Part shown: positions 4,276 to 61,663 of the stretch, piece after piece | How the letters are laid out: every line of letters starts with the position of its first letter | Position numbering within the stretch: position 1 is the first letter of the stretch | Translations under genes and position numbers: made by a program | NCBI GenBank assembly: GCA_964016885.1 | Contig: OZ024743.1 | Coordinates: forward strand, 190,650,001 to 190,714,000 | Direction: 5' to 3' | Length of the DNA: 64,000 nt | Source: Eledone cirrhosa | Lineage: Eukaryota | The notes under the pieces: generated by a model | The model's database searches: none | What the model was told of the DNA's origin: nothing | The model's input: the letters and a program-made list of their open reading frames with translations, nothing else

Positions 4276-4327
<52 letters not shown>

Positions 4328-7693: not shown

Positions 7694-10600
7694 AACCCCA
7701 ACATTTTGGCAAATCAACGCCTGTTTATATGCCTTAGCAACGACAGTGAAGCATTATCTTGGTGATAGCAGAAATATTAACAAGAACAGAACACCACCAA
7801 AAATACCATCATATATAACTAAAATAGAAAAAAAGATTGCTGACCTACGAAAAAACATAGGATATGTGACAATACTCCTTACATGCAAACAAACACAAAA
7901 AACCTCACTCCTCACCAACAAAGAGTGAACAATAAAATAGAGACGATGTTTGGTAATAGTAGAACCATAACTCTCCAATATAAGCTGATCACCCTCAAAC
8001 AAGGATTGAGAGCTGTTAGCGAAAAACGCCGATACCTGAAGAAGGTAGATGAGAGAAAAGTGCTTAATAAAAGATTCAGACGAAACCAAACATCAGTCTA
8101 TAGAGATATGAAGAGCAAAATAATAAGTGTCACTGAGGCCCATCCCAGAAAGCCATAGATTCCTTTTGGAGCAAAATATGGGGTGAAAAGAAGAATTTCA
8201 ACCAAGATGCAGTGTGGCTAAGAGAAATCCGAAAGAACTATTGCTCCTACACTACAAAAAAAACATACGAAATAAGTGAGGGTACACTTGAGACTGTGAT
8301 AGGAAAACTCCAAGATAAGAAAACACCAGGAAGAGAGATGATTGTCGGCTACTGGTACAAAAAACTGATATTCTATCGGAGGTATCTTACTGACCTCTAC
8401 CAACATGTTCTTAAGGGAGATACACTTATACCAGAATGGTTGACATTAGCACAAAGATTACTGGTCCCCAAGAACAAAGACACCCACTTGGCAAAAAACT
8501 ACCGACCCATTGCATGCCAGAACCTGATGTATAAGATGTATACAGCCTGCCTGAACCTATTCCTCCAAGATCACTGTGAAAATAATAACATCATCACAGA
8601 TGAAGAAGCAGCTGGTAAGAAAGGGTTTTAGGTAGGTGCTGAACAACTCCTAATCAACAAAACTGCGATGTCAGAGGTGCGACAACTTAGGAGGAATATG
8701 GCTACAGTCTGGCTGGACTACAGGAAAGATTTCGGTTCTGTTCCCCACTGATGTATGATAGAGGCCTTCCAACTTGCTAAAGTCTCAGACATTATTGTCA
8801 GAGCCATAGAGAAGCTGTCTTCTTCTTGGGCTACTATCCTAAGGTTAAAGACAGAGAGGGAGGATTCTATTTTCACTGATAAAATAAAATATTGCAGGGG
8901 TATATTTCAGGGGGACAGTCTCTCTGTGATATTATTCATATTGTCATTAAACCCCTTGTCCTTTCTGCTCAAGAAATGTGAGGGATACACCATTGGCTCA
9001 CAGAAGGACAGAAATGCGAACTTAACCCATTATTTCTTTGTTGACGATCTGAAACTCTATGCCTAGAACATGGATGGGATGAAGAAAAATCTTGACCTGG
9101 TTACAAAGTTCTCAAAGGATATAGGAATGCAGTTTGGCCAATATAAATGCTCATATATGATTGTAAAGCGGGAAAAAACAACAACCCAATCTAGCAACAT
9201 TGTCATCAATGTCCTAACTGTTTCACCGATATCTGATGAGGACTGCTACCTGGGGATAGATGTGAACATATCCTATAATGATATCTGTAATAAAGAACGC
9301 ATAACCAGGGAATACTACACCCGATTCTGAAAGATCTGGTCATCGGAACTCTCTGCGCAAAACAAAACAGTGGCTCACAATGTGTTTGCTGTGCCTGTCC
9401 TAACACAAACGTTTGGAATACTCAATTGGACGATAGACGAAATCCGAGCAGTTGATGTTGGAACTCGAAAAATACTAAACAACACCGGAAACTTCCACAT
9501 CAACAGTAACATAGACCGCCTTTACTTGAAACGTAAGCAGGGAGGCAGAGGCCTAACATCAGTCCAGACAACATTTGAATGTCGCATCCTATCTCTCCGA
9601 CATCTACGAACCTCGAAGCGTAGGAGCCCGTTTATTGAGAAAGTCTATCTGCATGAAACAGATAAGATCATGAGAGTTGGGAAGGAACTCCTCGAGAGAT
9701 ATTCCCTGTGTGATAATCAAAAACTCACACCCAGGGAAGTCGCTCAGCAGTATCGCAGTGAATCCGTGGATGAAAAACTGCATACTTATCAGCAAAAAAT
9801 CATGCATGGATATGTTGCCAGGAAGCTCCAGAGTGAGAGTAATATAGATAAGGAAAGTAGCCTGTCTTGGACCAACAACCGCTATATTGGCTCCCACTTT
9901 GAAGGATACGCTTTTGCAATCCAAAAACAGGAGATTAACACGAAATACCTGATTCACAAAAGAGATAGGGATGTAGGCAAAACACCTAGATGTGATAACA
10001 AGTGCAGACTCTGCAGAACTAACATCCAGGATACCACCCATGTCATCAGCAGCTGTCCAAAGATGTCATCGCGGTACTATCTACCTATGAGGCATGATGT
10101 AGTGGCCAAAACACTGTACGATGCAGTTCGTAAAAAGGATAGCGCCAATAATAAACACATTAAACGCTCCAGATATGTGGAAGACATCCATGTACATAAT
10201 ATGAAAGAGTACTAGTGGAATGTTCCAGTAAAGCCCCAATAAAATGCAGGCATAACAGACCAGATATTATGATATGGCACAGGGAGTAGAAAGCATTCAC
10301 AGTAGTGGAAATTAGCTACCAAGCAGATGCCAATATAATATCAAAGATTAGTGAAAAGGAGAATATTAATGCAAAACTGATGAGAAATCTGCAGATACTC
10401 CACCCTGATTACACTTTCACATTTATGCCTGTGATTATTGGGGCACTGGGCTATGTTAGTAATTGCCTCAATACAAATCTTGAGAAGCTATGCTTCACAG
10501 GAACAGAAAGAACACAACTAGTTAGGAAATTACAAGTACAATCCATTAATGGAACAGTAAAAATATGTAAAACATTCCAAACATTTTGCATCTGATAACT

Positions 10601-11869: not shown

Positions 11870-14665
11870 GCCGTTATAGTTATAGGAATAAACAAAGAGT
11901 GCTTAGAAATACATTGTTTTATTAGCTAACAATGTTTCATCCATACACCATGGCAGGTATCTTCAGAGCCTATAAACATGAGTATATCAGTAGTTGCATG
12001 CTCCATCGAGCTGCGTCACCAGAACGAGGTTAAGTGCACAGCAGGGGGTCTCGAGGCTATATGGAAAAAGACAGAATACATGATGCACATGATGTCATAA
12101 AGTGTCTTAAACATTTTTTAATTAAAAATTCCACCAAAAATGTATCACTTAGATGGTGCAATAGATGATAAAGAGGTTGGGAGAGGGTAGCAAGGGATGA
12201 GTGAGGGTATTACTCAGCATGATCAGAAACAATAAGTAAATAAAAAAAATAATAAAAAAAGTACAAAAATACAGGGATAAGAAAAGAGATAAATACAAAT
12301 ATACAAAACAATAAAGGAACAAAAAGCCCGGAACCCCGCCCCCCAAAAAAACATATATAAGACAAAGCAAAGCATAGATACATCAAAGCACAAGCAGTGC
12401 AAAAAGAGGGTGTACAGGCAGATCAAGAGAGTTTGCAAGCATGAGTCTGTGAAAAGAATTGTTGGTTAGCAGTAATGCAGCCTTACATGTATGATATTCC
12501 ATATGAAGGATGGTGTACTCCAATTATATCGCATTGTAACAGGTCGATTCTCTTCATCATATCCGCACCCTACGAACCACATCGATATGTTCCAGTTCCG
12601 AACGCTAAGGGAGATAACACTATTTTTCCAAAACCTATACCCAGGGGATTTATCACCATAGGCGGTCTGGGATATACACATAAAATCTACAATAAAAAAT
12701 AAAAGAGGGTACGACGAGTTAAAGAAATGTATGGCACATATACAGCCAGCACAGATGTGAGGAAATGGAAAACATTCGGTCACACAATCCAACGTGCCAG
12801 GTGAAATTCACTGTATGTCCAATTGGCGTTCAACCAATGTACATTTTTAAGCGGTGTGTACAGCTTATCGTTTCAGCTCTGCTGTTGATGAGCTCGTGGG
12901 GTGCCGTTATGATGTGGTAGAGCTCCATGAGGCAAAGCTCGCACTTCCTCTTGAAGTTGTACGGTGCAGTCCTGCCGATAATTTCCCAGTGCTGATGTTT
13001 GAGTCTTTTAATGTTGTGATGTAGTTCGCGAGCGAAGTGGAGTCTTAATTTCTTATTTGCGAAAGTGTGGAGATGTGTTCGAAATCTAATTTTGAACGGG
13101 CCAGAGGTAGCCCCTATATAATGTTTAACGCTATTATGGCTAGTGCACCTATATATAACCCTATCAGTCAAGCAGTTTCCCCTAAGGGGGCAGCGTCCAC
13201 GGTAAGGCTATTATTATTGCTATCTACGTTGTTACCTACGCTCCCGCATCTGTCGTTAGCACCATTATAACCTACTGTGCGCGGGGTGGTACCATTATTA
13301 TTTCACACGCAGCAGCGTCTTCCGTTGCCGCTAGGTGACCCCTGCGGTTCACCTGCATATTCTCCAATCATGTCGCCGTTATGTTGGTTGCGTCTGTAGA
13401 GGCTGTTGCCAGCACTATTGGATGCTGCTAGGGAGTCGTTAAGGCCGATATAGTTGTTGTCAGGTGTAGGTGCGTCTTTGCTAAGGTGCTGTGTCTTGGT
13501 GATGATCTTACTGTGATTAGTTGTTCCTATGATGTCTGCTAGGTTAGGAGTAGTAGAGAAGAATATTTTTATATTGTTCCTATTAAGGATGTTCCTATAT
13601 TTATGGTTGGGTGGGAAGTTCTTCTCTAATGCTTCGAAGAATATCCGGCGTATGTCGGAGGCCACACTCCGAGAGTAGGGGGGATGGAACCATAGGACGT
13701 TACGGTGGCGATTACGTGTCTTTGTACGTTTGCTACGGGTTGTGCTATCAGGGTGACTGCTCTTATGTTAATGCGATGTAGCCCGTTACGTGTCCCTTTC
13801 GCTTTATGCTCGGGTGCACTCTTCTTCCTTCTGCTATGTTTATATATAGGAAGTTGTTGGTTGGAAGGAGTTGGTAGTAGGCCGTCGCCTTTGTTGATTT
13901 TATAGTAGGGGAATAATTCAAGTAGGCTACAGTGGTCACCACCACCGGGGTCGCGATCTTTATTGTGTGGTAAACTATCTATACTATCGCCAGTGTAATT
14001 AACATTGTGGCCGTGTTCTTTAGTGCGATTTTCTATACTATTACATCCGACACCTACGAAGTAACCGCGTGATCGGTTATAGGTATGGCTTACTATAACG
14101 TTAGTCTTATGGGGAGGGGGTCTGGAGCTAGCATTAGGGATGTAGGAGATTCCTCGGTTCAAACAGGCGCTTCTCAAGGCCCTATTGCAGTAATCTGCCG
14201 CTTGGTTGAAGATATCCTCATTGGCGGAGAGCCTCGAGATCATATGTGAGATACTATAGACTATGGAGTTGAGAGTCTGCTTAGGGTGGTTGGAGGCATA
14301 ATTAATATAAGAAAGGCTCTCTCCAGGTTTATGGTATGGCTTGTATAGGCCCGTAGTCAATTCCAGGGTCACGTCCAGGAAGCCGACAACCTGGTGGCTG
14401 AGGTCTATAGTTACGGATAGGCCGTATGACTTGAAGAACCTGTGTATGTGCTTGTTAAGGTTCTCTATTCTACGAAGGCTATGGTTCCTAACGGTAAACA
14501 GGGCATCATCCCTATAAACACCTCCTTGTAGGGCCGGTATCTCGTCCCTAAGCTTATGGAGGAGATATATTCCGACCAGGTCGGTTGCTTGCGCTGAGTC
14601 GCTGGACCCCATCGTGATATCGAAGTTATCAGGACGGTTGATTCTGGTCCAGTGGGAGGGAGCCT
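11870..14665 (-). mobile_element. 5'-truncated Penelope-like element (Hydra-type RT with C-terminal GIY-YIG), frameshifted
   Basis: FDITMGSSDSAQATDLVG, GVYRDD, FLDVTL, YINYASNHP, FPPNHKYRNILNRNNIK; CPLRGNCL; VIY..YIGATSGPFKIRFRTHLHTF..WEII..CELC; terminal HHR then AATAAA. Confidence 0.9.
11924..11970 (-). ncRNA. Type I hammerhead ribozyme (minimal) at the PLE 3' end
   Basis: ggct-CTGAAGA-tacc..ggat-GAAA-c att g-TT-agct-AATAAA; stem I ggct/agct; stem II imperfect. Confidence 0.7.
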
Positions 14666-14899
14666 TCGTATATATGTATGTATAGAGGTTAGGTGTATGT
14701 ATGGGTGCTGCTACGTGTGTGAAGATGCAATACATTTTGTGGGTGTGCATTATTTCTTATGTATGTGTATGTATGTGTGCTTTTTTTATCCTTAATGGAA
14801 GAGTGCATGAGAGTATACCTACTTGTGATTCTGTGAAGTTTTTCTATGCGTGTCTATGCCCATGCCTGTCTATAAAATGTTAAGGATTATTGTGTACAT

Positions 14900-21646: not shown

Positions 21647-21924
21647 ACTCTACTCTCTCACAACCACTGTCTCTTTCTCTCTATCTTTCTCTCTCTCTAT
21701 TTATGAAGGTACCCGGAAAAACCCCGTAACTTGGGAACCCATGCTCGATTTATGCGAAACTTGTTTATTTCTTTTGTATTCCCATTTCAGGTGCAACACC
21801 CTGTCAAACTATTTCCCATTTTGTCCCGTTTTGGATGTATTAAATTAGAGACGAGCATACAATCACAGAGTTTTAGCAGTATATAGATAGTTAATGTGAT
21901 TATATATATATGTTTATTAAAATA

Positions 21925-22000
21925 ACAGATTAAACTTTAAGCAAAGAATCGCTGCTTTCACCCTTAACGGGATCTTCTGAAACTAACAAAGTCAATCTGT
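21925..22000 (-). ncRNA. Type I hammerhead ribozyme, CAGAAGA core variant
   Basis: Reverse-complement copy of 24772-24847 with one stem I mismatch. Confidence 0.7.
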
Positions 22001-22793
22001 AAACGCAGAAGTGGATATTTCAAAAAACGTTGCAACCAGAGGAAGACAGGAAGAACTTTGGTTCGTGGAAACGTTCGCTATGCAAATAAGTAAAGGTATA
22101 AACAAAACATATACTTAGCTCCCACATCAAGACGTAAAATATCCACGTATAGATCGTACTATCCGTTAGGGTATAGCGTGGGGCTGTAATACAAGAAAGT
22201 GTTGTGCAATTTATGTTTACAAGCCGAAATTGCCTCAGATTTTTTGTTTAAGATGTGGTCTGTGGCGTAGAGTATTTCCAGGGCCTCAGAGTCGCAGAGG
22301 TCACATGGTCTTTTATTTCCGTTATACGATCTAGCCCTAGCTAGGATCTCCCAGTGTAACTTATATTGGGTGTGGTTGTCTTTTAGACTCCAGATAGAAG
22401 CTGAAAGTGACGTCATATTCCTTCTTAGAGGGTAACGAAAAGAATGGGTATGCATGTAAAGACGCTGCTTGAATCTATTGGCCGTTAACCCTATGTAGGC
22501 CCTACGGGACGTGGGTGTTACAACCTTACATTTGTAGACAATGTTACTAGAGAGGCATTTCCCGGATAGGGGGCAATCAACCCGATTCCTACAATTACAG
22601 TTAGTACTAACTACAGGGTTGCACGTGTTCCTACGGCTAGTTAGTTTAGCTAAATTTGAAGCTGTGATGTTATGTGCAAGGTTAGGAGTCGTAGAGTAAG
22701 AAATTTTAATAGTATTTCTATTAAAAATTTTATTATTTTTGTGTAGGGGGAAAATGCTTCGTAATAAGGGAAAGAAAGATCTTAGCTAATGGT

Positions 22794-24618
22794 GTGGCTA
22801 AGGATTCTAATGCCGTGCACGTCCATTCCGACAAAACTGGCAACCTATATCAAGTGAAGCGCAGTACTTACCATCAACTACTACATAATGCTGTAACTAA
22901 GGATTACCGTAAAACTAATCAGTGCGTCATGAATGAATTCAACGATGCTGGGTTTAAAATCACATCTGATCTCAACATCCTGGACCGGACCGAACCTCTG
23001 GACCCTATTTCTCCCCACTTTACCCTGAAGGATCACAAATCCAATTTTCCGAACAACCCCTCTATTCGGCTTATTAACCCTACGGAGTCCGATTTAGGTA
23101 GATTTAGTAAAACGATACTTGATAGAATTATACCTGTAATTAGAAGTTTGGCCTCTCTTGTACTGTGGAACAATTCCTTCGCGGTGATTGATTGGTTCAA
23201 CGGCATATGTTACAAGGAACATTGCCGTTTTATCCAATTCGACATCAACAATTACTACTCCTCCATCACTTTACCACTTCTCCTTAGAGCTATCAATTTC
23301 GCTAAAACACTCACAGTGGTTAAAAATTTCGAAGTTGATGTCATCCTCATTGCCCGAAAGTCGGTGATTAATTTCGACGACTCTATTTGGATTAAAAAAT
23401 CCAATAGTACCCCATTCGACGTGAGTTTGGGCGCCAGTGATTCTGCGGAGGTTACTGATCTTATCGGCCTTTTCCTTTTTTTCTCTATCAAGGACGAATT
23501 CCCCAACGCGGGCGGTGGTTTTTACCGTGGCGATGGTCTTTTGACCATGACTAAGTGCGGACCTCGTGCTTGCGACAGGTTCAGAAAAGAACTCACAGCC
23601 TTCTTTAAAGGCTTCAACCTCTCTATACAGGTTGAGGCCAATCTCTAGGTCGTTAATTACCTCGACGTTACCCTCAACTTATTGAATGGGTTGTATTACC
23701 CGTATAGAAAGCCGAATGATACGCTTAATTACATAAGTAAGCATTCCAACCATCCTGCCAGCATAACCAAGAACCTGATAAGAAACGTTTCGTTGAGGCT
23801 TTCCCGTGTCTCCAGCAACGAGCGTATTTTCAACGACCATTCCACTTATTACAATGAAGCTCTTGCTCGAAGTGGATTTGTCGATAAGGAAGCATATACA
23901 GAGTACAAAAATAGACCTAGAAGAAATAGATCCCGTCGCATTTGTTGGTATAACCCACCATATAATATGGAGGTGGCCACACCATTAGCTAAGATCTTTC
24001 TTTCCCTTATTACGAAGCATTTTCCCCCTACACATAAATATATTAAAATTTATAATAGAAATAATATTAAAATGTCTTACTCTACGACTCCTAAATTTGC
24101 ACATAACATCACAGCTTCAAATTTAGCTAAACTACCTAGCCGTAGGAACAAGTGCAACCCTGTTGTTAGGTACTAACTGTAATTGTAGGAATCGGGTTGA
24201 TTGCCCCCTATCCGGGAAATGCCTCTCTAGTAACATTGTCTACAAATGTAAGGTTGTAACACCCACGTCCCGTAGGGCCTACATAGGGTTAACCGCCAAT
24301 AGATTCAAGCAGCGTCTTTACATGCATACCCATTCTTTTCGTTACCCTCTAAAAAGGAATATGACGTCACTTTCAGCTTCTATCTGGAGTCTAAAAGACA
24401 ACCACACCCAATATAAGTTACACTGGGAGATCCTAGCTAGGGCTAGATCGTATAACGGAAATAAAAGACCATGTGACCTCTGCGACTCTGAGGCCCTGGA
24501 AATACTCTACGCCACAGACCACATCTTAAACAAAAAATCTGAGGCAATTTCGGCTTGTAAACATAAATTGCACAACACTTTCTTGTATTACAGCCCCACG
24601 CTATACCCTAACGGATAG
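22794..24618 (+). pseudogene. PLE RT-GIY-YIG ORF, 5'-truncated and inactivated
   Basis: IRLINP, FIQFDINNYYSSI, FDVSLGASDSAE, YRGD (expected YRDD), WYNPPY, linker CNCRNRVDCPLSGKC (CxCx5Cx5C), IVY..YIGLT..FKQR..H..SF, W..CDLC. In-frame TAG at 23646-23648. The +1 frameshift near 24170 is absent from the inverted copy. Confidence 0.92.
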
Positions 24619-24771
24619 TACGATCTATACGTGGATATTTTACGTCTTGATGTGGGAGCTAAGTATATGTTTTGTTTATACCTTTACTTATTTGCATAGC
24701 GAACGTTTCCACGAACAAAATATCGTCTTCCTCCGGTTGCAACGTTTTTTTAAATATCCACTTCTGCGTTT

Positions 24772-24847
24772 ACAGATTGACTTTGTTAGTTTCAGAAGAT
24801 CCCGTTAAGGGTGAAAGCAGCGATTCTTTGCTTAAACTTTAATCTGT
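24772..24847 (+). ncRNA. Type I hammerhead ribozyme, CAGAAGA core variant
   Basis: acagattga..agttt-CAGAAGA-t ccc gttaa ggg t-GAAA-gcag cgattct ttgc-TT-aaact ttaatctgt; extended stem I with internal loop; AATAAA follows. Confidence 0.75.
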
Positions 24848-24945
24848 TATTTTAATAAATATTTGCTCTACGGTTCTTATATATTTGATATATATTTATC
24901 CTTATCGAGCCCTCTTTGGATTTTAGTCTTCTAATTTATTATTAT

Positions 24946-24976
<31 letters not shown>

Positions 24977-25075: not shown

Positions 25076-25130
25076 ACTGCCTGAAGAGGTCACAGCCAAT
25101 GATGGCTGTCACCGAAATATATATAGCAGT
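25076..25130 (+). ncRNA. Canonical minimal type I hammerhead ribozyme in a ~210-bp (TA)n-flanked unit
   Basis: actgc-CTGAAGA-ggt c acagcc aatgat ggctgt c acc-GAAA-tatata-TA-gcagt..AATAAA; all three stems pair. Confidence 0.88.
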
Positions 25131-29720: not shown

Positions 29721-30965
29721 ATTACAAATTCAAAATAGAAAACTCAGTTTTCAGCATCATGACAGCACCTTATTTACCTATACTTAATAACTGCTGCTAT
29801 CAAGACACTGTAGTTATATTATAGTTTATTGTAGAAACTTATAATGTAGCATAAAATAGTTTAGTTCATAGTAATGCTTAAGAATGATTCCAAAATATCC
29901 ATGCTTTGATAGAAAGTTACTTTATGCCCTGAGGAAGGAAGTTATCTGAATATTATATTTATATAAATTATTTGTTCTATTCATTTGATAGGTATTTATT
30001 CTCTGACTATCTGGTACTGCAGAGTAATAGGAACATTGCCAGACTATTGTTTTTGGCCAAATATAATAGCAAAACTGAATTCAGTAATAAGCAAATAATA
30101 AGCAAAACAGAAAATGAATGATAAATAAATAAAAATGATGTTAGTATGCATGCAGGCATAGTAATCATCTGGAGAGCCATGATGGTGATCGCTGTGTAAA
30201 TTATTATACACTTACTATAAGCCATAATGGAACTTAAATTCTGCATGAGTGAACTAACACGCCTCATTCACTAGCAATGGATTTCTTCACATTCTGTAGA
30301 ATATGATACAAACTAAGGGGGCTGTGCTTTATATTATCATGTTAAAAGTATTTTAAAATCATACTTGATGTCTAGCTTCAGGTCAGCCATGGAGAGTAAA
30401 CAAACCTATAAGGAAAAAATCATTCGTGTTTCAGGCATAATGATATTTGCGACAACATTATTTTAAAAGATTCTTCTTCATTCAAGATGATAGTGTAGAA
30501 TTTAAGAGAAATTTCACTGTTACATTTTGCATGTCAAACCACAAGGTAGAAGCTTCCACATAGCATATATAGGAGTGTGGCAAAGTTTAGTAAAATAAAA
30601 ACATTTTGATTGAAGAAATGAAAAGGAAATCAAAGTAACAATACTTCAAAAGATTGTTGGTGGTAATCTGAAAACGATCAAAACAACTTTCAAGAATGCA
30701 ATGTAAGATGGGATAAATACTGATAAAAAAGCGAATAGCAAAACTGTAAGCCATTTCTGAGATGTAGCCACTTATCGCATTCAATAATAGAAAGCTCTAA
30801 AAATAAAGAAACTAGCAAAGTTGCTATTTTAGCAAGAATTATCATCATTATTAAATGAATTACAAAAATAAAATATTCTTATTGATCTTTAATAATTATA
30901 TTTGTTTGCATAAATCTTTACATTGAATTCACTGACAATACATAGGGATATTTTTTTAGAAATAA

Positions 30966-34124: not shown

Positions 34125-34774
34125 ATTAAATTTAGATACACACTTGAAATGTGATTTATTTTCATATGGCCCATGCCTTACTCAATTATACCCTCCCACA
34201 ACTGAAAAGATTCATACAATATAAAAGATTCATACAATATAAAATTGAATCAAAATGAGGATGCAGCCACATATATAAGACAATTAGATGAAATATGCAT
34301 ATGCTAGATATAGAATTGTGTTTCTGAATAAAATATATAACAAAGTATGTCATTTATTAAAACAGATAACAAATAAACTATTAGTAGATATATATATCTT
34401 CATGAAAAGGTTAAGCAATTCATTGTGCTTGTCCAACTAGTGTTCTAGACAAATATCTATAACTCCTGCAAAAAGCAATGATAAACATTTACTGAATAGT
34501 TCTGATAATAAGTATTTGAGAAAGAAACTATTTATCCCATTAATGTGCAGAATAATTGCAGATCAATTGTTTATATTTCACCAACTATGGTAAATAAGTT
34601 TGCTAGGTGGTTTGAGGCACAATCATTTGTGAAGCACTTTGATTGTTTTTTTTACCATAGGCTTCATGCATCTGAACCTTTCTAAATGTGGAGCCCTGTG
34701 GAGGAATATATATATATATAATCATCAACATCTAATATCAAAAATATATATTTTGTTTTATATATATATATAGG

Positions 34775-35420
34775 TAAATATCTTTAAGTCGTTTGGAAGC
34801 CTCGACAATGCAAATGGGTAAATCTCCGGGTAACAAGATCCGGTGGTGGAGAGAGAGATGTAAGTGGGTGTACGTTGAGATGCGTGGTGTGTAAAGATGT
34901 GTAAATGTGTAGAAGAAAGAAGGGAAGAGTATAAAGGATAAAATAAAAATAACAACACAAGAGAGAGTTACCTTGGGAGAGATTTAATAGTGCCTATATA
35001 TTTCGGATTCACATCCATCAACTGGGGTTTTTTTCCGGGGTAAAGATTGTCTGTCGGACAGGTGCGAAACGCGTCCTCCGCTGTTTGTTGTTTTGAATTC
35101 AAAACAACAAACAGCGGAGGACGCGTTTCGCACCTGTCCAACAGACAACCTTTACCCCAGAAAAAAACCCCAGTTGATGGATGTGAATCCGAAATATATA
35201 GGCACTATTAAATCTCTCCCAAGGTAACTCTCTCTTGTGTTGTTATTTTTATTTTATCCTTTATACTCTTCCCTTCTTTCTTCTACACATTTACACATCT
35301 TTACACACCACGCATCTCAACGTACACCCACTTACATCTCTCTCTCCACCACCGGATCTTGTTACCCGGAGATTTACCCATTTGCATTGTCGAGGCTTCC
35401 AAACGACTTAAAGATATTTA
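34775..35420. repeat. 646-bp spacer-less palindrome centred on GAATTC (35095-35100)
   Basis: Arms are reverse complements with three transitions seen near the centre; ORFs 34758- and 35237+ share the same N-terminal translation. Confidence 0.95.
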
Positions 35421-36399
35421 TTTATTATTCCACAATGCTTCAAGCAAACTTCAATACTCTCTTATATATATATGTGTTTACCGAAAGGGGATTTCAGAAA
35501 TTGTGTGTCAAAGAGAAATACCGCCACCTATTTTGTTTCATCCAAGTTATGCATTTTGATATCCAAGTTGACGCTATCTAAGGAAGTAGATAAAATGAGT
35601 TTCAAACTCTGTACTGAGACTGATAGAAGGGATTAAACCTCTTGACTGTGGTGCTTCGTCATTGGTGCATTCTAATGATTAAAACCTATGAAAGAAAATG
35701 AAAGTAAGATATTTTGCCATTATTGGTGATTTGATTTGAACTTACCAACCTCAGTTATATAGTTTTGGAGAGTTTAACCATTAAAAAAATTATCTGTTTT
35801 GATAGAGCATTTATCCAACTCAACTATCTCTTCATGACTCCTCCATTTAAACAACAATAGCTTAGCATTGCCTCTAAATAACTTCGCCATCTGTAAAATT
35901 AATACCCTGTATTTATATATGTATATATAGAAGATAGTTATCAAATTATAGCTTGCATACAATTATATTATGAATACTTGAGTTGCTGCAGTAGCAACTC
36001 TCAGCAGGTTAGCACTTTAAAGATTCTTTCAAACAGAATCTAATAATTTTCACACTACTGTCAAGATACATTGTACACACCGAGCTACACACACATATGT
36101 ATATATACACACAAACATGCAGACATATATACACAAACACTAATGTGCATTCTTATATTTCATGAGTGTGAGACTTTGTATGAATGTATGTATGTATAAA
36201 TACTTAATTGTATCTAGCTTGAGAGAGGGAGCAGGTAGGGAGAAAGAGAAATGACCTGCCTATTCTCAACTTCCAAGTAATTTCATCATGTTCTTATAAA
36301 TTAACAAAATATATCAGTCTCGGCTGTCAGGCTTTAAATTATGGCCTTAGTTGAATTGTACAAATCTAGTGTTAGAGATTTATTCAGACACACATACAT

Positions 36400-36629: not shown

Positions 36630-37873
36630 TCATCATCACCGTTTTACGTCCGTTCTTCCACGCTAGCATGGGTTAGACGGGTTGTCCTGTTGTGGGCAGT
36701 GTCTGGTCGGCTGACCATGCCAGGAACTGATCTGGCTTGATTTCTACAGCTGGATGCCCTTCCTAACACCAACCTCATTTACAGTGAGTGCTGGGTGCTT
36801 TTTCGTGGCGTCTACACGTCCACTTTACAGTGTGGGCTGGGTGCTTTTTTGCCGTGGCACCTCCACGACCACCTTGCGGTGGGGGGGGGGGGGCATATTG
36901 TTTATATGCTTCAGCATGTACCCATGGGAGGTCGGGTACCCTGTATTACTGCGTGACGCCAGAAGTCACGGTCGTGTGTCATTGACTTTGAGAGGTGTAG
37001 TTGGGTAAGGTCGGCTTTTATCACCTCATCCCAAGTCATCTTGGGTCTCCCCACTCCGCGGTTTCCATCAACTTCTAGTGCTCTGCACCTTTTTATGCAG
37101 CTGTCATCCTTCATACGCATCACATGTCCATACCAGCGTAACCGCCTCTCCTGCACGCAGCATTTGATTCCTCTTATGCTCAGTCTCTCTCTCAATTCAT
37201 TTATGCTTTGTCGTTCACGTATATTACTGTTACACATCCATCGGAGCATGCAGGCTTCGTTTCTCTCTAATCTACGTAAGTCTTCCACCTTCAGCGCCCA
37301 GGTCTCACTACCATGCAACATCGCTGTTCGGATACACGCATCATACAGTCTGCCTTTCATTCTGAGGGAGAAGCCTTTTGCAGCTAGCAGTGGTAGTAGT
37401 TCCCTAAACTTCTTCCATCCCGTTCTTACCCTAGTTATTGTACTTTCTGAGCACCCACCTCCGTTGCTAATTCGGTCACCTAGGTAGCAGAAGCTGTCTA
37501 CTGTTTCTACAGGGCCCTCCCAGAGATTGGTGGTACTTGTTTCCTGTGGCTGTTTGCTTGCTGTTTCAGCACAGCTGCTGCATGTGAATCCTACATTCTT
37601 AATTAAGCTTCCTGAGATCCCGCTACATCTCTTGTGTACCCATTGTTTGCATTTGGGGCAAAGAATGGAGTTCCTACCTACACCTTTCCTACATACTGAG
37701 CAAGGCCATTTCCCTGAGGGGATCTGGGTTCTGTTTTCTCGTCTACTTATAAGGACCTTAGTCTTTGTCATGTTGACTTTGAGGCCCTTTCTCTCTAGTC
37801 CCTGCTTCCAGGTTTGGAATTTATTCTCTAGTTCTACCATAGATTCAGCTATGAGTGCGAGGTCATCAGCATA

Positions 37874-37874
<1 letters not shown>
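36627..37874 (-). mobile_element. 5'-truncated RTE LINE (from YADD to the 3' tail)
   Basis: YADDLALIAES, PHD-like Cys/His insert, FCYLG, RLRWYGHV; (GAT)n tail; (TA)n on both flanks. Confidence 0.93.
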
Positions 37875-37935
<61 letters not shown>

Positions 37936-38169
37936 TACCGACACAAATCTATTGCGCCAATTGAAATAAAGTGATGAACAAATCTGGTAATGGAAGTTTT
38001 ATATCTTTAAGAAGTAGTATGAGCTGCTGTAAATACAAGAAATTTGTTTCTCAGTTATCTATAGTTTTCTCTTTTCAAGTTATACATAAAAAGCATCTAT
38101 TAATGCATCTAACAGTGTTAACATAGGGATAGGTTCAAAATACCCGAATATCAGCTCTGCTATTTAGTA

Positions 38170-38361: not shown

Positions 38362-39520
38362 ATGATGAAATTATTGCGTAAAGTGCTCAGGTGCACTACA
38401 ACTCATCAAATCTGCATGTGTAGCACATAGAATAATGTATAAATGTCAGGAAAGTGAACAGTGTACGAGTCATGATATACACACAGATAAATGCAAGAGT
38501 GTGTATGGAGGGGAAATATAAGGTGTAGTGTTGGCGAATTTCAGGAAGCATGGAGGTTTTAAAGGATATAGTGTCCCAGAAGCTAGCAACTGATGTAGGT
38601 AGTTTGTTCCATGCTTCAGCAACTCTGAACATGAAAAAATATTTCCGAAAGTCCTGAGAATTGTGCTGTTTTCTGACTTTGTAGGCATGACCATGGGTGT
38701 TAGACACATGGAATTCAAAAAGGTGCTCAAGGTTGTTGTTGGCAAGATGGTTAATAATTCTATGGGTCTTTACCACGTCAGTTGCCAGACATCTGAGCTT
38801 CAATGTATCCATGCCCAGGGAAGCAAGGCGTTTAGAGTATGGCAGATGCCTGATGGAGGGTATTCGCTTGGTTGCACATCTCTGAACAGTTTTCAGGAGG
38901 TCAAAATTCTAAGCAAGATAAGGGTTCCAGACTGGTGATACAAATTCTAAGTGTGGCCACACCATAGCTATATACAGCTTTAAATAGATAGCTGGAGAGC
39001 AGCTGACAAAGGTCTTGCTGAGTGATGCCAAGACACCCTCGGCCTTCTTGACAATTTTAGAGATTTGCTTTGTCCAACGCATATCGCTGCGGACAGTAAT
39101 GCCCAGGTCACATTCAAAGAAGACTTCTTCAGATTAGTGTTGTGGAGGGAGTATATGGATGCTGGGCTTTTTCATTCCAAATTGCATGGTGATACACTTG
39201 TCCACAGACAGCTTGAGTTGTCACTCCATGATCCATTGCTGCATTGTATCCAGGTCAGATTGCAGGAAATCTATAGCGTTCAAGATCTGTCCTTTTTATC
39301 TCAAGGCACAGCTTGATGTCATCTGCATATTTCAGCACTGTAGCATTCTTTAAGTTGGCATCTATGTCATTAATGTATGCAACAAACAAAAGGGGCCCAA
39401 ACAGATCCCTGCAGTACACCAGATGACATCTCATAGGGTGAAGAATGCTGTCCTAGAACCATGACTACCTCTTTTCGACTCAGAATGAAGGACTTCAAAC
39501 AGCTGTAAAGATCATCTCTC
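38362..39520 (-). mobile_element. CR1/L2-type LINE 3' fragment
   Basis: GVLQGS..GPLLFVAYINDI, YADDIKL; C-terminal THGHAYKVRK..RKYFF..RVAEAWNKLP..FK. Confidence 0.85.
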
Positions 39521-50934: not shown

Positions 50935-53580
50935 GGAATGACAGAGGACGGAGACATCGTTATGCTAGAAGGGGACTTCAATGGTCATGTTTGACAGCTA
51001 CAGGATGGTTACACTGGGGTACATGGTGGGCCCGGTTATGGCTCAAGAAATGAAGGAGTGAGACTTTTTGAATTTTGTGATGCAAGTACACTGATTATTT
51101 GCAACACTAACTTCCAGAAACCTGCCAACCACCTAATAACCTACAAATCTAGCGAGCGCATCAGCCAGATCGACTTCTTACTAGTTAGGCATCGGGACAG
51201 GCAGATAGTGTCTAATACCAAGGTATACACTGGGGAAGAATGTACCCCACAGCATAGGTTAGTCGTTAGTGATATCTCAGTAAACAAGAGATGGAATGAG
51301 ACATACAGGAAGGTGTGGAGAAGAAAGGTCTGGAAGCTAAAAGACCTTTCACTAAAATACAAATTTAGGAAAGCCCTTCAAGATGTGTATGACGAAAAAG
51401 AAGACGATTTAGAGACGTATGACATAGATAATAACTGGAATTTCTTACGTGACAACTTACTGCAGGCTACTGATGAAACTTGTGGCTGGAGCAGAGCTCC
51501 AACCAGACAGAGAGTGACCTGGTGGTGGAACAGCACAGTAGATAAGGCCATTAGAGACAAAATACTAGCATGGAAGGCTTGGAAAAAGGGTGGGAGTAGA
51601 GAATGATATACAGCCACTAAGAGAGAAGCTAGACGTCAGGTGTACTTAGCACGTAGAGAGGCTGAGAGTAGAAGGTTTGCCAATGTTCTGCGACGGGAAG
51701 ATCAGAGGCGTGCGGTGTTCCACATTGCAAGGCAGTGTGTCAATGCAAATCAAGATGTTGTTGGAGATAAATGTGTCCGGAATGATGCCGGTGTACTTAG
51801 TGTCACGAATGATCAGAAAATGGAGGCCTGGAAATGTCATTATGAGAGACTGATGAATGTGGAGAACGAATGTGAGAGAGAGAAATTACCCTCAGTAGAT
51901 CCAACAGAGGGACCAGCTATTGAGATTTACGAATATAGGGTCCAAGAGGCGATTAAGGAAATGAAAAATGGTAAGGCTGCTGGACCATCGGGGATAGTTG
52001 CTGAGATGCTGAATGCATCAGGGGACGTAGGCACTAAACTGGTTGCACGCATCATCAATCAGGCTATATATGGTGGTGTCATACCCAAAGACTGGTGAAG
52101 CAGTATTCTCATAAATTGCTACAAAGGTAAAGGGGATGCTCTGGAGAGGAACAATTATAGGGGTATCAAACTGATGGATCAGGTTATGAAAGTGGCAGAA
52201 AGGATTTTAGCACAACTAATTAGAGAAAGGGTCAGACTAGATGAGATGCAGTTTGGTTTTGTGCCTGGGAAGAGTACAACAGATGCCCTCTTCTTGGTGA
52301 GACAATTACAAGAGAGGTTCTTAGAGAAAAATAAGCCACTATACTTAGCCTTTGTTGACCTAGAGAAGGCCTTTGATAGGGTACCCCAATCTGTCATCTG
52401 GTGGTCCCTAAGGAAACTAGGTGTTGAGGAATGGCTTGTGAGGACAGCGCAAACTTTGTACAGAGGTACTGTTAGTAAAGTCAGGGTAGGAATGGAGTTT
52501 AGTGAGGAATTCCAGATTCAAGTAGGAGTACATCAAGGTTCGGTCCTCAGGCTGCTCTTGTTCATTATAGTCCTCCAAGCGATAACATGGGAACTTCTCT
52601 ATGCTGACGATCTAGTTCTTATAGCAGAATCAGTAGAGGAGCTAGAGAATAAATTCTGGCTATGGAAACAGCAGCTGGAAACTAGAGGACTGAGAGTGAA
52701 CCTAGCTAACACAAAAGTGTTGATGAGTAGAAAAGAGGACAAAACCCTGATTCTGTCAGGGAAATGGCCATGTTCGATATGCAGAAAAGGAACTGGCATA
52801 AATTCTATAAAATGCACACAATGCAGATCCTGGGTACACAAGAGATGTAGCGGGATAGCAGGCAAACTAACAGGTAGGGAGAAATACGTATGCAGTAGAT
52901 GTACAGGGAAATTAGACAGTAGAAGTCGCATTGATAGACACATTTTTCAAATGCAGGCGGGTGCTATAAAAGTGGTGGATAGCTTTCGGTACCTAGGAGA
53001 TCAGATTAGCATGGGAGGGGGTGTTCCGAGGCCATAGTATTTAGAATAAGGACGGGCTGGACGAAGTGTAGGGAGCTGCTTCCTCTGCTGACGAAGAAAA
53101 GAAGGGTCTCTCCCTGCGTACGAAAGGCCGGTAGTATGATGCCTGTGAGAGGAGCGCGATGCTGCATGGAGTGAGACATGGGCAGCAACTGCAGAGAAAT
53201 GAAGCAAGTATGCTCCGTTGGATCTGCAATGTCAATGTGCGTGAACGACCCAGCATGAATGTGTTAAAAGAGAAACTGTGTCTGAGAGGGAGATAATGTA
53301 GTGTGCGAGAGAGGAGACTGAGGTGGTATGGGCATGTGATGCGCATGGAGGATGACCGATGGGTGAAGAAGTGCCAGAAAATGCCAGTTGAAGGAAGACG
53401 TGGTAGATGTAAACCACGAAAAACTTGGGCGGAGATGGTGAGAATAGTCCTCAGATCGCTGAAGCTCACGGTGGAGATGACGAAGGACCGTGACAAGTGG
53501 AGAGATGCTCTGCTGAATAAGACCCTTGCAAGCAGGGAAAAGTGGACGTAAAAGGATGATGATGATGATGATGATGATGA
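50935..53580 (+). mobile_element. 5'-truncated RTE LINE (partial APE endonuclease plus RT), multiple stops
   Basis: GDFNGHV, SQIDFLL, QHRLVV (APE); NYRGIKL, FVDLEKAFD, LLYADD, PHD insert, RLRWYGHV; (GAT)n tail. Confidence 0.93.
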
Positions 53581-54592: not shown

Positions 54593-54785
54593 ACTATTCT
54601 CATCTAAGTATCCAGGCAAAGCGTGGACTCTGGAAACTTATTAAAAAATAATTCAGTGGATAGGATATATATATATATATACATAGTAATAATAATAAAT
54701 TTGAAGACTAAAATCCAAAGACGGCTCGATAAGGATAAATATATATCAAATATATAAGAACCGTAGAGCAAATATTATTAAAATA

Positions 54786-54861
54786 ACAGATTAAAGTTTA
54801 AGCAAAGAATCGCTGCTTTCACCCTTAACGGGATCTTCTGAAACTAACAAAGTCAATCTGT
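54786..54861 (-). ncRNA. Type I hammerhead ribozyme, CAGAAGA variant
   Basis: Reverse complement of 24772-24847. Confidence 0.75.
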
Positions 54862-55759
54862 GAACGCAGAAGCGAATATTTCAAAAAACGTTGCAACCGG
54901 AGGAAGACAGGAAGACGATACTTTGGTTCGTGGAAACGTTCCCTGGCAAAGAACGGGAAAAAACGAATATAATACGTCATTATTTGGAGCGGTAAAAAAC
55001 AATTACACGCAAGGACAAAACTACGTTTATAGTATAAAAGAAGTCGTAGACTAATATTCTCTTAGGTGGTTCAAAGAGACGTTCTCTGGCAACGAATGTA
55101 AAAAACGAAGATAATACGTCATATCTGGAGCGTATAGAACAATTGCACGCAAAGACAAAACCACGTAAATGGTATAACTGAAGTCGTAGACTAAAATTCT
55201 AACTAGGAAACCGAATGATTCTCGGCTTCAGAGTTAAGAATAAAGTAAATAAAATACAGAGGTAATTGAAATTAAATAAACACATACACGCATCCATATT
55301 GTCTACAAATGTAAGGTTGAAACACCCACGTCCCGTAGGGCCTACATAGGGTTAACCGCCAATAGATTCAAGCAGCGTCTTTACATGCATACCCATTCTT
55401 TTCGTTACCCTCTAAGAAGGAATATGACGTCACTTTCAGCTTATATCTGGAGTCTAAAAGACAGCCACACCCAATATAAGTTACACTGGGAGATCCTAAC
55501 TAGGGCTAGATCGTATAACGGAAATAAAAGACCATGTGACCTCTGCGCCGCTGAAGCCCTGGAAATACTCTACGCCACAGACCACATCTTAAACAAAAAA
55601 TCTGAGGCAATTTCGGCTTGTAAACATAAATTGCACAAAACTTTCCTGTATTACAGCCCCACGTTATACCCTACGGATAGTACGATCTATATGCGGATAT
55701 TTTACGTCGATGTGGTGGTTAAGTATATGTTATGTTTATACCATTACTTATTTGCATAG

Positions 55760-56061
55760 GTAAGTATATATTACCTGTATGTTTAATGAAGGTACGTATA
55801 CTTTCTCATACGTATATCTGATTGTATATGTTATGGCGTATATTTTACATATTCTGGTACATATGCTTTTGGTTATGTGTATACGTGAGTTTTGCGTCTG
55901 TGTGAGTATGCGGGTTCGTACGCATGTAGGGTGTGTGTTTATGTGTACTTCGTGTTTTGGTTGAGGTACGTCTCCGAACATTTGTGTATTTACACGTAGG
56001 TATGTGTGTGCGCTTGTTATATACGTATTCATTTATTTATATACGTTTATTTAATTATTTG

Positions 56062-56126
<65 letters not shown>

Positions 56127-56405
56127 ACACACACACATATTCATATGTGCGTGTATTTGTATACCTATGTATGCTTGTGTATGTACGTATATGGATGCGT
56201 GTATGTATTTATTTAATTTCCATTACCTCTGTATTTTATTTACTTTATTTTTAACTCTGAAGCCGAGAATCATTCGATTTCCTAGTTAGAATATTAGTCT
56301 ACGACTTCTTTTATACCATAAACGTGGTTTTGTCCTTGCGTGTAATTGTTTTTCACCGCTCCAAATAATGACGTATTATATTCGTTTTTTCCCGTTCTTT
56401 GCCAG
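55760..56405 (+). other. Spliceosomal GT-AG intron in the PLE pseudo-LTR/UTR
   Basis: catag|GTAAGT..tttttcccgttctttgcCAG|ggaacg; precisely absent at 24699/24700 and at ~22077. Confidence 0.88.
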
Positions 56406-56486
56406 GGAACGTGTCCACGAACCAAAGTATCGTCTTCCTGTCTTCCTCCGGTTGCAACGTTTTTTGAAATATTCACTTCTGCGTTC

Positions 56487-56562
56487 ACAGATTGACTTTG
56501 TTAGTTTCAGAAGATCTCGTTAAGGGTGAAAGCAGCGATTCTTTGCTTAAACTTTAATCTGT
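56487..56562 (+). ncRNA. Type I hammerhead ribozyme, CAGAAGA variant
   Basis: agttt-CAGAAGA-t ctc gttaa ggg t-GAAA-gcag..ttgc-TT-aaact. Confidence 0.72.
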
Positions 56563-56587
56563 TATTTTAATAAATATATATATGCAC

Positions 56588-59304: not shown

Positions 59305-59615
59305 GTATATATATATATATATACATCTATGCCATGTCTTTCCTTTATCTCAGTCACAGTTATTAGAATAGATTTTTATATTGTAATTCTTGTCTATGCA
59401 TGCTAATGTACTTCCTTCCCTATCTCCTTTTTATGAATCTACACTACCTTTGTCTTCCTAAATACTATGCATACTTAGAACATTTTGAAATCTGCTACTA
59501 AGGCATTGGAGCAAAACATTAGATTCACATTAAACACACCTATCATTATTTCCCACCTCACACTTTTGTAAGAACATGTAGAGCATCAATAATATAAAAT
59601 ATAAAAATTTGGTTA
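59305..59615. repeat. Inverted-duplication segment A' (partner 61664-61965)
   Basis: Near-identical reverse complement with one small indel. Confidence 0.92.
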
Positions 59616-61663
59616 TGTTTCTTTAGATCCAGCTATTGCTCTTGCTTTATGGGACTGGGGTCATCCTGTATAGAGCTGACCATGTCCACCAGAGCCCTCC
59701 ATTATTGGCATTCGTTTTCACCTCTGTATATCCCCAAAAATCAAAACACTATTAGCTATTAACCAATAATGTTTTTACTTCAAGCCACTATTTGTAATTA
59801 GCTCTCTCAATATATTAACCCTAATGAAACTATATATTTTTATGCAAATAGCATATTGAAATTATTATTCACTAAACAATTTTATTTTACTATTCCTAAC
59901 AATGTATAACTTTGAACATTTTTTCATTCTCATTTCAGCGAGTATAGTGAAGTCTCTTTTTTGCAGATAAGGTTGTAATAAGCCCCAAACATGTCCATAA
60001 TTGTCTCTTTTACTTTCTCCCAAAATGAAAATAATATTGATTAATAACTAATATTGTTTTTCTGTGAGCATGTAATTGATTCTAGTTAGCTTTCTTAATG
60101 CTCTATACATTGCATATGTGAACACTAAGTTCGCTATCTTTATGTGGATGGTGTATTTAAATAAACATTATTTTTAAAATATAAATGTTAGAATTTAATA
60201 TATTAATATCCAGTCCTTTTCTCTTGGGTTCATTTGCACCACCCACCAGTTTCATGACATGAAAATCCTGGGGTATCTTGATTATTGTAGCAAAACAGTA
60301 TTTATACTGAGTGAGAAGAGTTATGTAATAAGAGGCAAACGTCTGTTTTCAATCACTTTAATGTCATTTAACTTAAATTTAATCTCTAACTTTCAGAAAT
60401 AGCCAAACAAACAACATACTCCTTTCCTATTCTTCACTCCTAAAATATAGGGCATGTGTACATATTCATAAATAAACTGGTTTGTAATATTTAATAAGAA
60501 TTTGACTTTGTAAAATTGGGTAGTTAAAGTATTTGTGTTTTTAAGAAATAGCACATTGATGAAGCTAGAATCTAGACCATAATTTAAAACCCAACTAAAA
60601 TAAAAGAAACATATTACAAAGCTTTCTTCAATAAAGTTAAACCAAACATTACAAAAAGAGAACTGATTGCAGTCATACATTACTATGAGCATAACTCTCC
60701 CAGCAATAAATTGAAGTTTGAGATATTTCTGAACCACTCATTTCATTTAAGTAGGTAAATAACAATGGAAAAAACAAATGATATCAATTTAAATCTATTT
60801 TTTTTTATTTCACATTCTACAAATTCCTATTTCTAGCCAGCATTAGCTATGTAACATATTCATAGGTCAGAAAACATTCAGATTTTGAGACATGTTTACA
60901 TAGTTATACCAAACTTGAGCATCAAGAAGATCTTTTCCTTCTTTTAAGAGATTCTTCTATAAGCAAATTAGACAGAATGAGAAAGAGAAAGAGAATACCA
61001 ATAGACACTGAATGACATGAAAATAATAGAAAATCAACTAAAATGTCATATTTGAGTGGCATTTTAATGGAAACATCTTTTCTTCAACCTGACACAAGCT
61101 ACTCCTGTTTTGTGGTGATAGCAAAGAAAGACATTTAGGAGGAGATTTAATCTGAGTTTCTTTGCATTGTTGTTTTACTGTGTCAAAATAGTTTCATAAC
61201 TCTTCACTGTGGGAGAGAGAAAATGCATGACAAGAAATAGAAAACAAAAAACCGGGATCAAAGAGAAAAAATTGGAACAGTAAAAAAGATAGGGCTAGAA
61301 AGACAGAAGAGAGAGAAGTGGGGAGGATGGTGGTTAGGAATGCACTAGAAATACCACAAGGAAAAGAGAAGTTGAAAGCTGTCCAGAAAAATACAAGCAA
61401 CAAAGAAATAGAAAATAAAAGCAGATACAGGGAGATGCATTAAGAACAAAGAGAGAGAATTATAAATGATGGGAAAATAGGTTATAATACTAAACAGATA
61501 TAAAATAAAACAATTGAATTTTGACTCCTTTGTGAAAACTATATTTTCTAATGGCGATCACAAAAAAAGCAAATGTTTGCTCTTCATCAATATGAATAAG
61601 ATTTCTTAAAATTTAGATGATATCCTTGAACAAGCAGTGAATACCTGATGTCAATTCCTACAA

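What the first reader, a model, noticed from the sequence alone, without database searches (positions are those of the whole stretch)
34775..35420. 646-bp zero-spacer palindrome assembled from hammerhead-like halves
Seen: perfect fold-back centred on GAATTC with three transitions noticed between arms (~35027, 35036, 35045), which argues against a simple read or assembly fold-back. Each arm holds two oppositely oriented HHR 3'-half signatures: GAAAcgcGTC with a cgggg/ctccg stem I but an aberrant 5' core (TAAAGR), and cagttga-t-ggat gtga atcc-GAAAtataTA-gg..attaaa. Inference: a PLE-type fold-back (self-primed) product able to form a cruciform or a 323-bp dsRNA (ADAR or siRNA substrate), or carrying highly divergent ribozyme cores.
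Basis: partly seen in the sequence, partly recalled or inferred. Interest (0 to 1): 0.7.

Follow-up and report, generated by a model that had tools for sequence, protein, structure and literature searches.

The report
Head-to-head Penelope retrotransposon end palindrome
This 646-base DNA palindrome is really in the sequence, between two TA repeats and with a 42-base extension on one side only; it is likely the non-coding end of a Penelope-like retrotransposon inserted twice head-to-head, a known arrangement, and its ribozyme-like motifs have altered cores and are predicted to be inactive.

Summary
The unit runs 34775-35462, between (TA)n runs on both sides, with a 42-bp extension on the right only. 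Inverted end + direct end + one-sided tail in (TA)n is the published signature of Penelope-like element (PLE) insertions, and two Hydra-clade PLE insertions in this window show the same layout. The outward-facing hammerhead motif copies the Drosophila virilis Penelope layout but has two core changes (U4A, A6U). The inward-facing motif has a good 3' half and a broken core. No Rfam hammerhead match was found, the two same-strand motifs have incompatible loops, and a full transcript would bury both in a hairpin, so cleavage is unlikely. No ORF and no second copy were found. Best reading: an ORF-less PLE end inserted as two copies joined at their 5' ends (PLE origin about 0.8; twin priming preferred to fold-back). 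It is a known kind. What remains odd is a U4A core shared with the neighbouring PLE family and the second, opposite-strand motif.

The parts
34759..34772 (.). Left (TA)n run, likely the insertion target
   Evidence: Sequence; 0.55% of window positions have such a run ending within 3 bp to the left
34773..34774 (+). Two G bases not mirrored on the right; possibly untemplated at the start of reverse transcription (inference)
   Evidence: Mismatches at arm positions 324-325
34775..35097 (-). Left arm: inverted copy of the element end (short version, no tail)
34993..35026 (-). Motif A, mirror copy (outward-facing minimal-hammerhead-like motif, core CAGTTGA)
35036..35080 (+). Motif B, better copy (inward-facing; 5-bp stem I, 6-nt broken core TAAAGA, 7-bp stem II with three G-U pairs, GAAA, CGCG loop, UC site)
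   Evidence: the only window hit with stem I >=4 bp under that descriptor
35095..35100 (.). Centre of symmetry GAATTC; inferred annealing or turn-round point
35098..35420 (+). Right arm: direct copy of the element end (inferred sense strand)
   Evidence: orientation inferred from the tail and motif A
35115..35159 (-). Motif B, mirror copy; holds all three inter-arm differences (35140, 35149, 35159); those at stem I and A9 move it away from the hammerhead pattern, the third is in loop II
35169..35202 (+). Motif A: 2-bp stem I, core CAGTTGA (U4A, A6U), bulged U, G10.1-C11.1, 4-bp stem II, GAAA, TATA loop, UA site; ATG at 35177-35179 spans A9 to G10.1
   Evidence: layout compared with D. virilis Penelope and PAc
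35207..35212 (+). ATTAAA, poly(A)-signal-like hexamer after motif A
   Evidence: function untested
35224..35394 (+). Candidate intron (strong-looking donor after 35223, G-poor interior, weak acceptor); speculative
   Evidence: no transcript data
35421..35462 (+). 42-bp extension on one side only; likely the PLE tail
   Evidence: Lies between the arm end and the TA run; G/(G+C) 0.15, like the arm (0.24, P=0.73) and unlike the right flank (0.57, P=0.007)
35463..35473 (.). Right (TA)n run, likely the insertion target; a 12-bp T(TA)n word is shared with the left run, so a target duplication cannot be told apart from the microsatellite

Best explanation
The 688-bp unit 34775-35462 is likely a Penelope-like retrotransposon insertion made only of the element's non-coding end, likely copied twice from RNA after priming at both strands of a cut TA microsatellite, with the two copies likely joined at their 5' ends through the self-complementary central hexamer. 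Shown: the symmetry, the TA runs on both sides, the one-sided 42-bp extension, the hammerhead-like layouts and the absence of a PLE ORF. Inferred: an RT and endonuclease supplied in trans; two start points 42 nt apart on the RNA, giving one copy with a tail and one without; both cDNAs ending at the same place and annealing at GAATTC; repair. The hammerhead cores were probably already degenerate in the template, since both arms share them, and are predicted not to cleave. The insertion is probably inert; if transcribed it would form a ~320-bp hairpin and would likely be an ADAR or small-RNA substrate as a by-product. PLE origin about 0.8; this exact route about 0.55.
For: Layout: (TA)n, inverted copy, direct copy, tail, (TA)n; chance of both TA adjacencies about 3e-4 (16 of 61,500 positions, this locus included). 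Published PLE signature: a 5' inverted copy, a 30-40-bp tail at one end, (TA)n preference (PMC8557442); head-to-head palindromic junctions (PMC3846280). PAc in vitro cuts both strands, is predicted to be a dimer, starts RT at two adjacent sites that delimit the tail, has its ORF start at HHR stem II, and does not need HHR cleavage to insert (PMC11167929). In-window control: two Hydra-clade insertions each have one short and one long end at shared positions, with 4 of 4 ends at TA-rich runs. Motif A has the same 2-bp CC/GG stem I and UAUA loop as the D. virilis Penelope HHR and an ATG at A9-G10.1. Tail base skew matches the arm, not the flank. Two of three differences remove a CpG.
Against: No second copy of the arm or tail in the window, so the tail is not proven to belong to the element. 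No coding link to a PLE protein: tblastn of 95 PLE-type proteins gave 5 hits at E 0.02-0.05, taken as chance; a 41-aa frame found no homologue. No Rfam hammerhead match at any threshold tried. The 42-bp tail is slightly longer than the 30-40 bp in print, though the neighbouring family's is about 90 bp. Motif B, on the opposite strand, is not explained by the model. The three differences cluster in 20 nt (P about 0.01). A fold-back of one cDNA gives the same product.
Confidence: 0.55

Rival explanations
1. Same PLE origin, but one cDNA (or an antisense RNA) folded back at the centre and primed a copy of itself, which stopped 42 nt short and joined the left TA end.
For: Zero spacer and 99.1% arm identity; self-priming is the published explanation for palindromic head-to-head PLE junctions (PMC3846280).
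Against: It needs the copy to stop by chance at a tail boundary, whereas the neighbouring family's short and long ends recur at fixed positions in two insertions, as two RT start sites predict. Clustered differences fit two templates slightly better.
Confidence: 0.25
2. A DNA-level inverted duplication (hairpin-capped break or fork template switch) of an older single PLE end, or a small foldback/MITE-type DNA transposon.
For: Any perfect palindrome can arise this way; the window also holds a ~2.6-kb element with long inverted ends set in TA runs at 59.3-62.0 kb.
Against: The left arm ends 2 bp from a TA run and the right end is asymmetric by 42 bp; hammerhead layouts are PLE features, not DNA-transposon features; there is no spacer.
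Confidence: 0.1
3. Assembly or library artefact: a read fold-back, a head-to-head join of two haplotypes or repeat copies, or religation at an EcoRI site.
For: The centre is an EcoRI site; 0.9% arm difference is of the size of allelic difference; no reads could be checked.
Against: Symmetry stops at 323 bp and both flanks are unique; both ends fall at TA runs in PLE fashion; 2 of 3 differences are CpG-type; the window has no N and no other such palindrome. Any zero-spacer palindrome has some palindromic hexamer at its centre.
Confidence: 0.06
4. A functional RNA element: active non-canonical hammerheads on both strands, or a selected hairpin-RNA locus.
For: Two motif layouts in one arm beyond shuffle expectation; U4A is also fixed in 4 of 4 ends of the neighbouring family; natural core variants can be active (PMC3088659).
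Against: Both cores differ from CUGANGA at two positions; a change at A6 gave low activity; each strand holds one A and one B with different palindromic loops, so the dimer that minimal HHRs need cannot form in cis; the full hairpin outcompetes and isolated motif A does not fold as a hammerhead; no sign of transcription.
Confidence: 0.04

Closest known systems
Inverted/direct pseudo-LTR pairs with a one-sided tail in endonuclease-containing Penelope-like elements (Adineta vaga Pen2/Pen2a/Pen3a; PMC3846280, PMC8557442)
   Same: Head-to-head inverted end, palindromic junction, extension at one end only, AT-rich or (TA)n target
   Different: No ORF between the ends, so the whole unit is one 323-bp-arm palindrome; the palindromes quoted for A. 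vaga are 18 and 38 bp
Minimal type I hammerhead of Drosophila virilis Penelope (PMC4209133, Fig. S3 text)
   Same: 2-bp CC/GG stem I, unpaired base after A9, G10.1-C11.1, GAAA, UAUA palindromic loop, UH site
   Different: Core CAGUUGA instead of CUGAAGA; stem II 4 bp instead of 6-7
Poseidon element PAc of Anolis carolinensis (PMC11167929)
   Same: ATG at the start of HHR stem II; a tail between two end points; AT-rich target
   Different: PAc has an intact core and ORF; here no ORF follows and the start points are inferred from one copy
Hydra-clade PLEs (PMC8557442), including family A in this window
   Same: (TA)n target, inverted 5' copy, one-sided tail; family A shares the U4A core change
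   Different: Hydra HHRs have a real stem III; no sequence similarity between family A and the palindrome
Non-LTR retrozymes (bioRxiv 10.64898/2026.07.22.740005)
   Same: Non-coding, HHR-bearing, PLE-derived
   Different: Retrozymes are head-to-tail tandems with intact HHRs; this is a head-to-head pair with altered cores
Palindromic Harbinger repeats of Xenopus as ADAR substrates (PMC5625713)
   Same: A self-folding repeat would be edited without a neighbouring inverted copy
   Different: Those are DNA transposon derivatives with editing data; there are no expression data here

Membership tests
Autonomous Penelope-like element | ORF with RT and GIY-YIG endonuclease | tested here: not met
   Six frames of the arm hold stops or no homologue; filed only as a PLE-derived non-coding insertion
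PLE-derived insertion (pLTR pair) | Inverted copy adjoining a direct copy at their 5' ends | tested here: met
   orientation inferred from the tail and motif A
PLE-derived insertion (pLTR pair) | Short tail at one end only | tested here: inconclusive
   42 bp between arm end and TA run with arm-like skew; no second copy to confirm
PLE-derived insertion (pLTR pair) | AT-rich or (TA)n target | tested here: met
   TA runs at 34759-34772 and 35463-35473
PLE-derived insertion (pLTR pair) | Target-site duplication | tested here: inconclusive
   Only a 12-bp T(TA)n word is shared by the flanks
PLE-derived insertion (pLTR pair) | Same end sequence found on an ORF-bearing PLE elsewhere in the genome | not testable with these tools
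   No eukaryotic DNA collection available; none in the window
Minimal type I hammerhead ribozyme | 5' core CUGANGA (or U3-A8 variant) | tested here: not met
   Motif A has CAGTTGA; motif B has TAAAGA (left) and TAAAGG (right)
Minimal type I hammerhead ribozyme | Unpaired base after A9, G10.1-C11.1 pair, GAAA, palindromic loop III, UH site, stem I | tested here: met
   All met by motif A; motif B meets GAAA, loop, UH and stem I but not the 10.1-11.1 pair
Minimal type I hammerhead ribozyme | Second compatible copy on the same strand for the dimeric fold | tested here: not met
   Each strand has one TATA-loop and one CGCG-loop motif
Minimal type I hammerhead ribozyme | Match to an Rfam hammerhead model | tested here: not met
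   weak test, since the consensus-core HHR motifs in the window also scored no gathering-level hit
Minimal type I hammerhead ribozyme | Self-cleavage | not testable with these tools
   Needs an assay
Non-LTR retrozyme | Head-to-tail tandem units, each with an intact HHR | tested here: not met
   No tandem array at the locus; arrangement is inverted
MITE / foldback DNA transposon | Symmetric terminal inverted repeats directly abutting a target duplication | tested here: not met
   Ends are asymmetric: 2 bp to TA on the left, 42 bp on the right

The most novel reading that the evidence does not exclude
The unit is one copy of a non-autonomous, PLE-mobilised palindromic family whose arm natively carries hammerheads on both strands, and the U4A core seen here and in all four ends of the neighbouring Hydra-clade family is a working, protein-assisted hammerhead variant that CUGANGA-based descriptors miss.
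Probability: 0.08. Interest if true: 0.7.

Novelty: new member of a known kind. Interest (0 to 1): 0.3.

Why it matters
As read here it is an unusually clean, minimal example of a known PLE insertion pattern: both RNA ends, the tail and the 5'-5' junction lie within 700 bp, so copies of this family could separate twin priming from fold-back, an open point in PLE replication. Both arms share a non-consensus hammerhead core, and the neighbouring family carries U4A in two insertions; this fits the in-vitro result that cleavage is not needed for insertion. If U4A cores did cleave, current descriptors would be under-counting PLE ribozymes. No host function is indicated.

Tried and rejected
Rfam: 0 gathering-level hits in the window; E-value scans gave generic miRNA-hairpin matches caused by the palindrome and other sub-threshold matches (29 rows, none a hammerhead) and 1 chance snoRNA match on the single arm. 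Prokaryotic, plasmid or phage origin: 0 matches. Coding potential: no Pfam hit for the arm ORFs, no homologue for a 41-aa frame; short YIG-like tblastn hits (5 hits from 95 proteins, E 0.02-0.05) rejected as chance. Host gene: 148 of 318 filtered ORFs of 45 aa or more (those at 25-48 kb) were scanned against Pfam; 2 weak hits, one RVT_1 and one FA_hydroxylase at 30047-30211 that I rejected (no exon-like borders, no homologue). Whether the locus is intronic stays open. A covariance model from the window's other hammerheads was dropped because the alignment was unusable. HHR cleavage sites as element boundaries: rejected; the sites (after 35200 and after 35075) match neither centre nor ends. ADAR-edited template: all three mismatches are G-T on the minus strand, which would fit, but that has a 1-in-4 chance and CpG decay fits two of them (P 0.018 if CpG is ancestral, 0.10 in either direction); unresolved. 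Match to published PLE consensus sequences: three arm motifs gave 0 hits in the PMC8557442 supplement (line breaks can hide hits). The sigma-70 scan does not apply to an animal genome; no tRNA genes. Source names for the PLE homologues and a search of the 1.84-billion-protein set were not obtained. Viral and metagenome contig collections stayed unchecked.

Full report
1. Observation. The arms 34775-35097 and 35098-35420 match at 320 of 323 positions with no spacer; the centre is GAATTC. No other long palindrome of this kind lies in the window, and no other copy of the arm (best other blastn hit E 0.017, low complexity). The window has no N.

2. Setting. The window is AT-rich DNA full of microsatellites and decayed retroelement ORFs, which points to an animal genome. 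That it is a cephalopod is my recollection of its SINE- and LINE-like repeats, not a tool result. It holds PLE coding remnants at 12.8-14.8, 22.2-24.6 and 55.3-55.6 kb. The 22.7-kb ORF has 95 homologues; DKT occurs in 86 of 95 and RWK or RWR in 59 of 95, the marks of the Hydra clade, which inserts in (TA)n and is reported from Octopus bimaculoides (PMC8557442). No host exon was found among 148 of 318 filtered ORFs scanned, so transcription of the locus is unknown.

3. True boundaries. A (TA)n run at 34759-34772 is followed by two unmirrored G bases and the left arm. The right arm is followed by 42 bp (35421-35462) and a second run at 35463-35473. In this window 0.55% of positions have such a run ending within 3 bp on the left and 5.7% have one starting within 50 bp on the right; the product is 3e-4 (the 50-bp limit was chosen after the fact). 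The 42 bp are G-poor like the arm and unlike the right flank (P 0.73 and 0.007). An inverted 5' copy, a 30-40-bp tail at one end and (TA)n preference are described for PLEs (PMC8557442; PMC8969392), and palindromic head-to-head junctions for A. vaga Penelope (PMC3846280). The window supplies a control: two insertions of one Hydra-clade family (21.9-25.0 and 54.7-56.6 kb) each have one end stopping at an AATAA(A) signal and one running about 90 bp further, with all 4 ends at TA-rich runs. Their arms differ by 19 substitutions in 889 columns and 6 in 286, so the palindrome (3 in 323) is younger or has been homogenised.

4. The hammerhead-like motifs. Motif A (35169-35202, facing outward) has a 2-bp CC/GG stem I, an unpaired U after A9, G10.1-C11.1, a 4-bp stem II, GAAA, a TATA loop and a UA site. 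That is the layout listed for D. virilis Penelope (PMC4209133 supplement), and an ATG spans A9-G10.1, as in PAc, whose ORF begins at stem II (PMC11167929). Its core is CAGTTGA: U4A and A6U. Motif B (35036-35080, facing inward) has a clean 3' half with a CGCG loop and a 5-bp stem I, but a 6-nt core two edits from consensus. Shuffle controls: 34 and 0 of 3000; 24 and 4 of 20000. These descriptors were post hoc; the relaxed one hit 4 unrelated sites and each missed some convincing hammerheads in the window. Rfam gave no hammerhead hit, but also none at gathering level for the consensus-core motifs at 25081(+), 58654(+) and 11966(-). Activity is unlikely: a change at A6 gave low activity in PMC3088659, minimal HHRs need a compatible partner, the two motifs on one strand have different loops, and a full transcript folds as one hairpin. 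Neither cleavage site marks a boundary.

5. Mechanism. PAc cuts both strands of AT-rich DNA, is predicted to be a dimer, starts reverse transcription at two nearby internal sites that define the tail, and inserts without HHR cleavage. Applied here (inference): each nicked TA strand primes one cDNA, one from the tail end and one from 42 nt further in; both stop at the same 5' point; their 3' ends are self-complementary at GAATTC and anneal. This gives head-to-head arms, one tail and TA on both sides. The published alternative is self-priming, which gives the same product; I rank it lower because it does not explain fixed short and long ends. Against an artefact: unique flanks on both sides, PLE-like ends, and 2 of 3 differences removing a CpG (P 0.018 if CpG is ancestral, 0.10 either way). 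For it: an EcoRI centre, allele-sized divergence and no reads to check.

6. What is not explained. Motif B: either a nested inverted end of another PLE in the source locus or a native antisense motif; opposite-strand min-HHR pairs 100-700 bp apart are reported in Schistosoma, but that text does not say whether the two differ. The three differences cluster in 20 nt (P about 0.01), all in the 5' half of B. Two templates could explain that; so could survival of palindromes interrupted near the centre (recalled, untested). The intron candidate at 35224-35394 is speculative.

7. Novelty. The structure is a new instance of a described pattern. The U4A core is the one possibly new detail: it is in both arms and in 4 of 4 ends of the Hydra-clade family, but not in the three other hammerhead motifs of the window. 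All 56 motifs in Fig. S3 of PMC4209133 and all rows of File S2 of PMC8557442 have U at position 4, but both sets came largely from descriptors that require it. Searches listed no paper on a U4A PLE hammerhead; Figure 5 of PMC3088659 and most subscription papers could not be seen, so absence from print is not shown.

8. Papers seen. PMC4209133: main text parts 1-2 of 4, supplement parts 1-2 of 3. PMC8557442: passages, section 11, supplement searches and part 2 of 59. PMC3846280: passages, sections 6 and 11. PMC11167929: parts 1-2 of 4. PMC3088659: passages and section 8. PMC5625713 and PMC8969392: passages. bioRxiv 10.64898/2026.07.22.740005: part 1 of 5; its supplements were not seen. Other papers: search listings only.

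9. Verdict. A real, probably inert PLE-end palindrome; new member of a known kind; interest 0.3. Novel case probability 0.08, interest 0.7 if true.

Noticed in passing
window 55760-56405 versus 24699/24700 and the inverted copy near 22090: One copy of the Hydra-clade family keeps a 646-bp GT-AG intron-like segment downstream of the ORF; two other copies lack it precisely at the donor and acceptor, so spliced and unspliced forms of one PLE family seem to have inserted side by side.
   Followed up: partly
window 21973-21979(-), 24793-24799(+), 54834-54840(-), 56508-56514(+): All four ends of this family carry a Hydra-type hammerhead layout with core CAGAAGA (U4A), a 4-bp stem III and a 5-bp stem I (intact in 3 of 4), so the variant core was mobile in at least two insertions.
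   Followed up: partly
window 21914-24952 and 54680-56573: Two PLE insertions with an inverted 5' copy and a tail of about 90 bp on one end only, longer than the 30-40 bp in print.
   Followed up: partly
window 25076-25130(+), 58654(+), 11966(-): Three hammerhead motifs with consensus cores, each near a TA run; the last lies downstream of the Hydra-like ORF at 12830-14756(-) and shares its 3' half with the 58654 motif.
   Followed up: partly
window 59324-61950: About 2.6-kb segment with ~310-bp inverted ends (97-98% identical in two blocks), set directly in TA runs, with symmetric ends and no tail; class unknown.
   Followed up: no
window 54936-55200: A ~140-bp tandem duplication inside the inverted copy of the intron-like segment.
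   Followed up: no
window 2081-4464, 36911-37948, 50995-53037; 8137-10595; 38396-39452: Decayed LINE-type reverse-transcriptase ORFs of several families; family names not tested.
   Followed up: no
window 30047-30211(-): Weak Pfam FA_hydroxylase match (E 0.003) judged spurious.
   Followed up: yes
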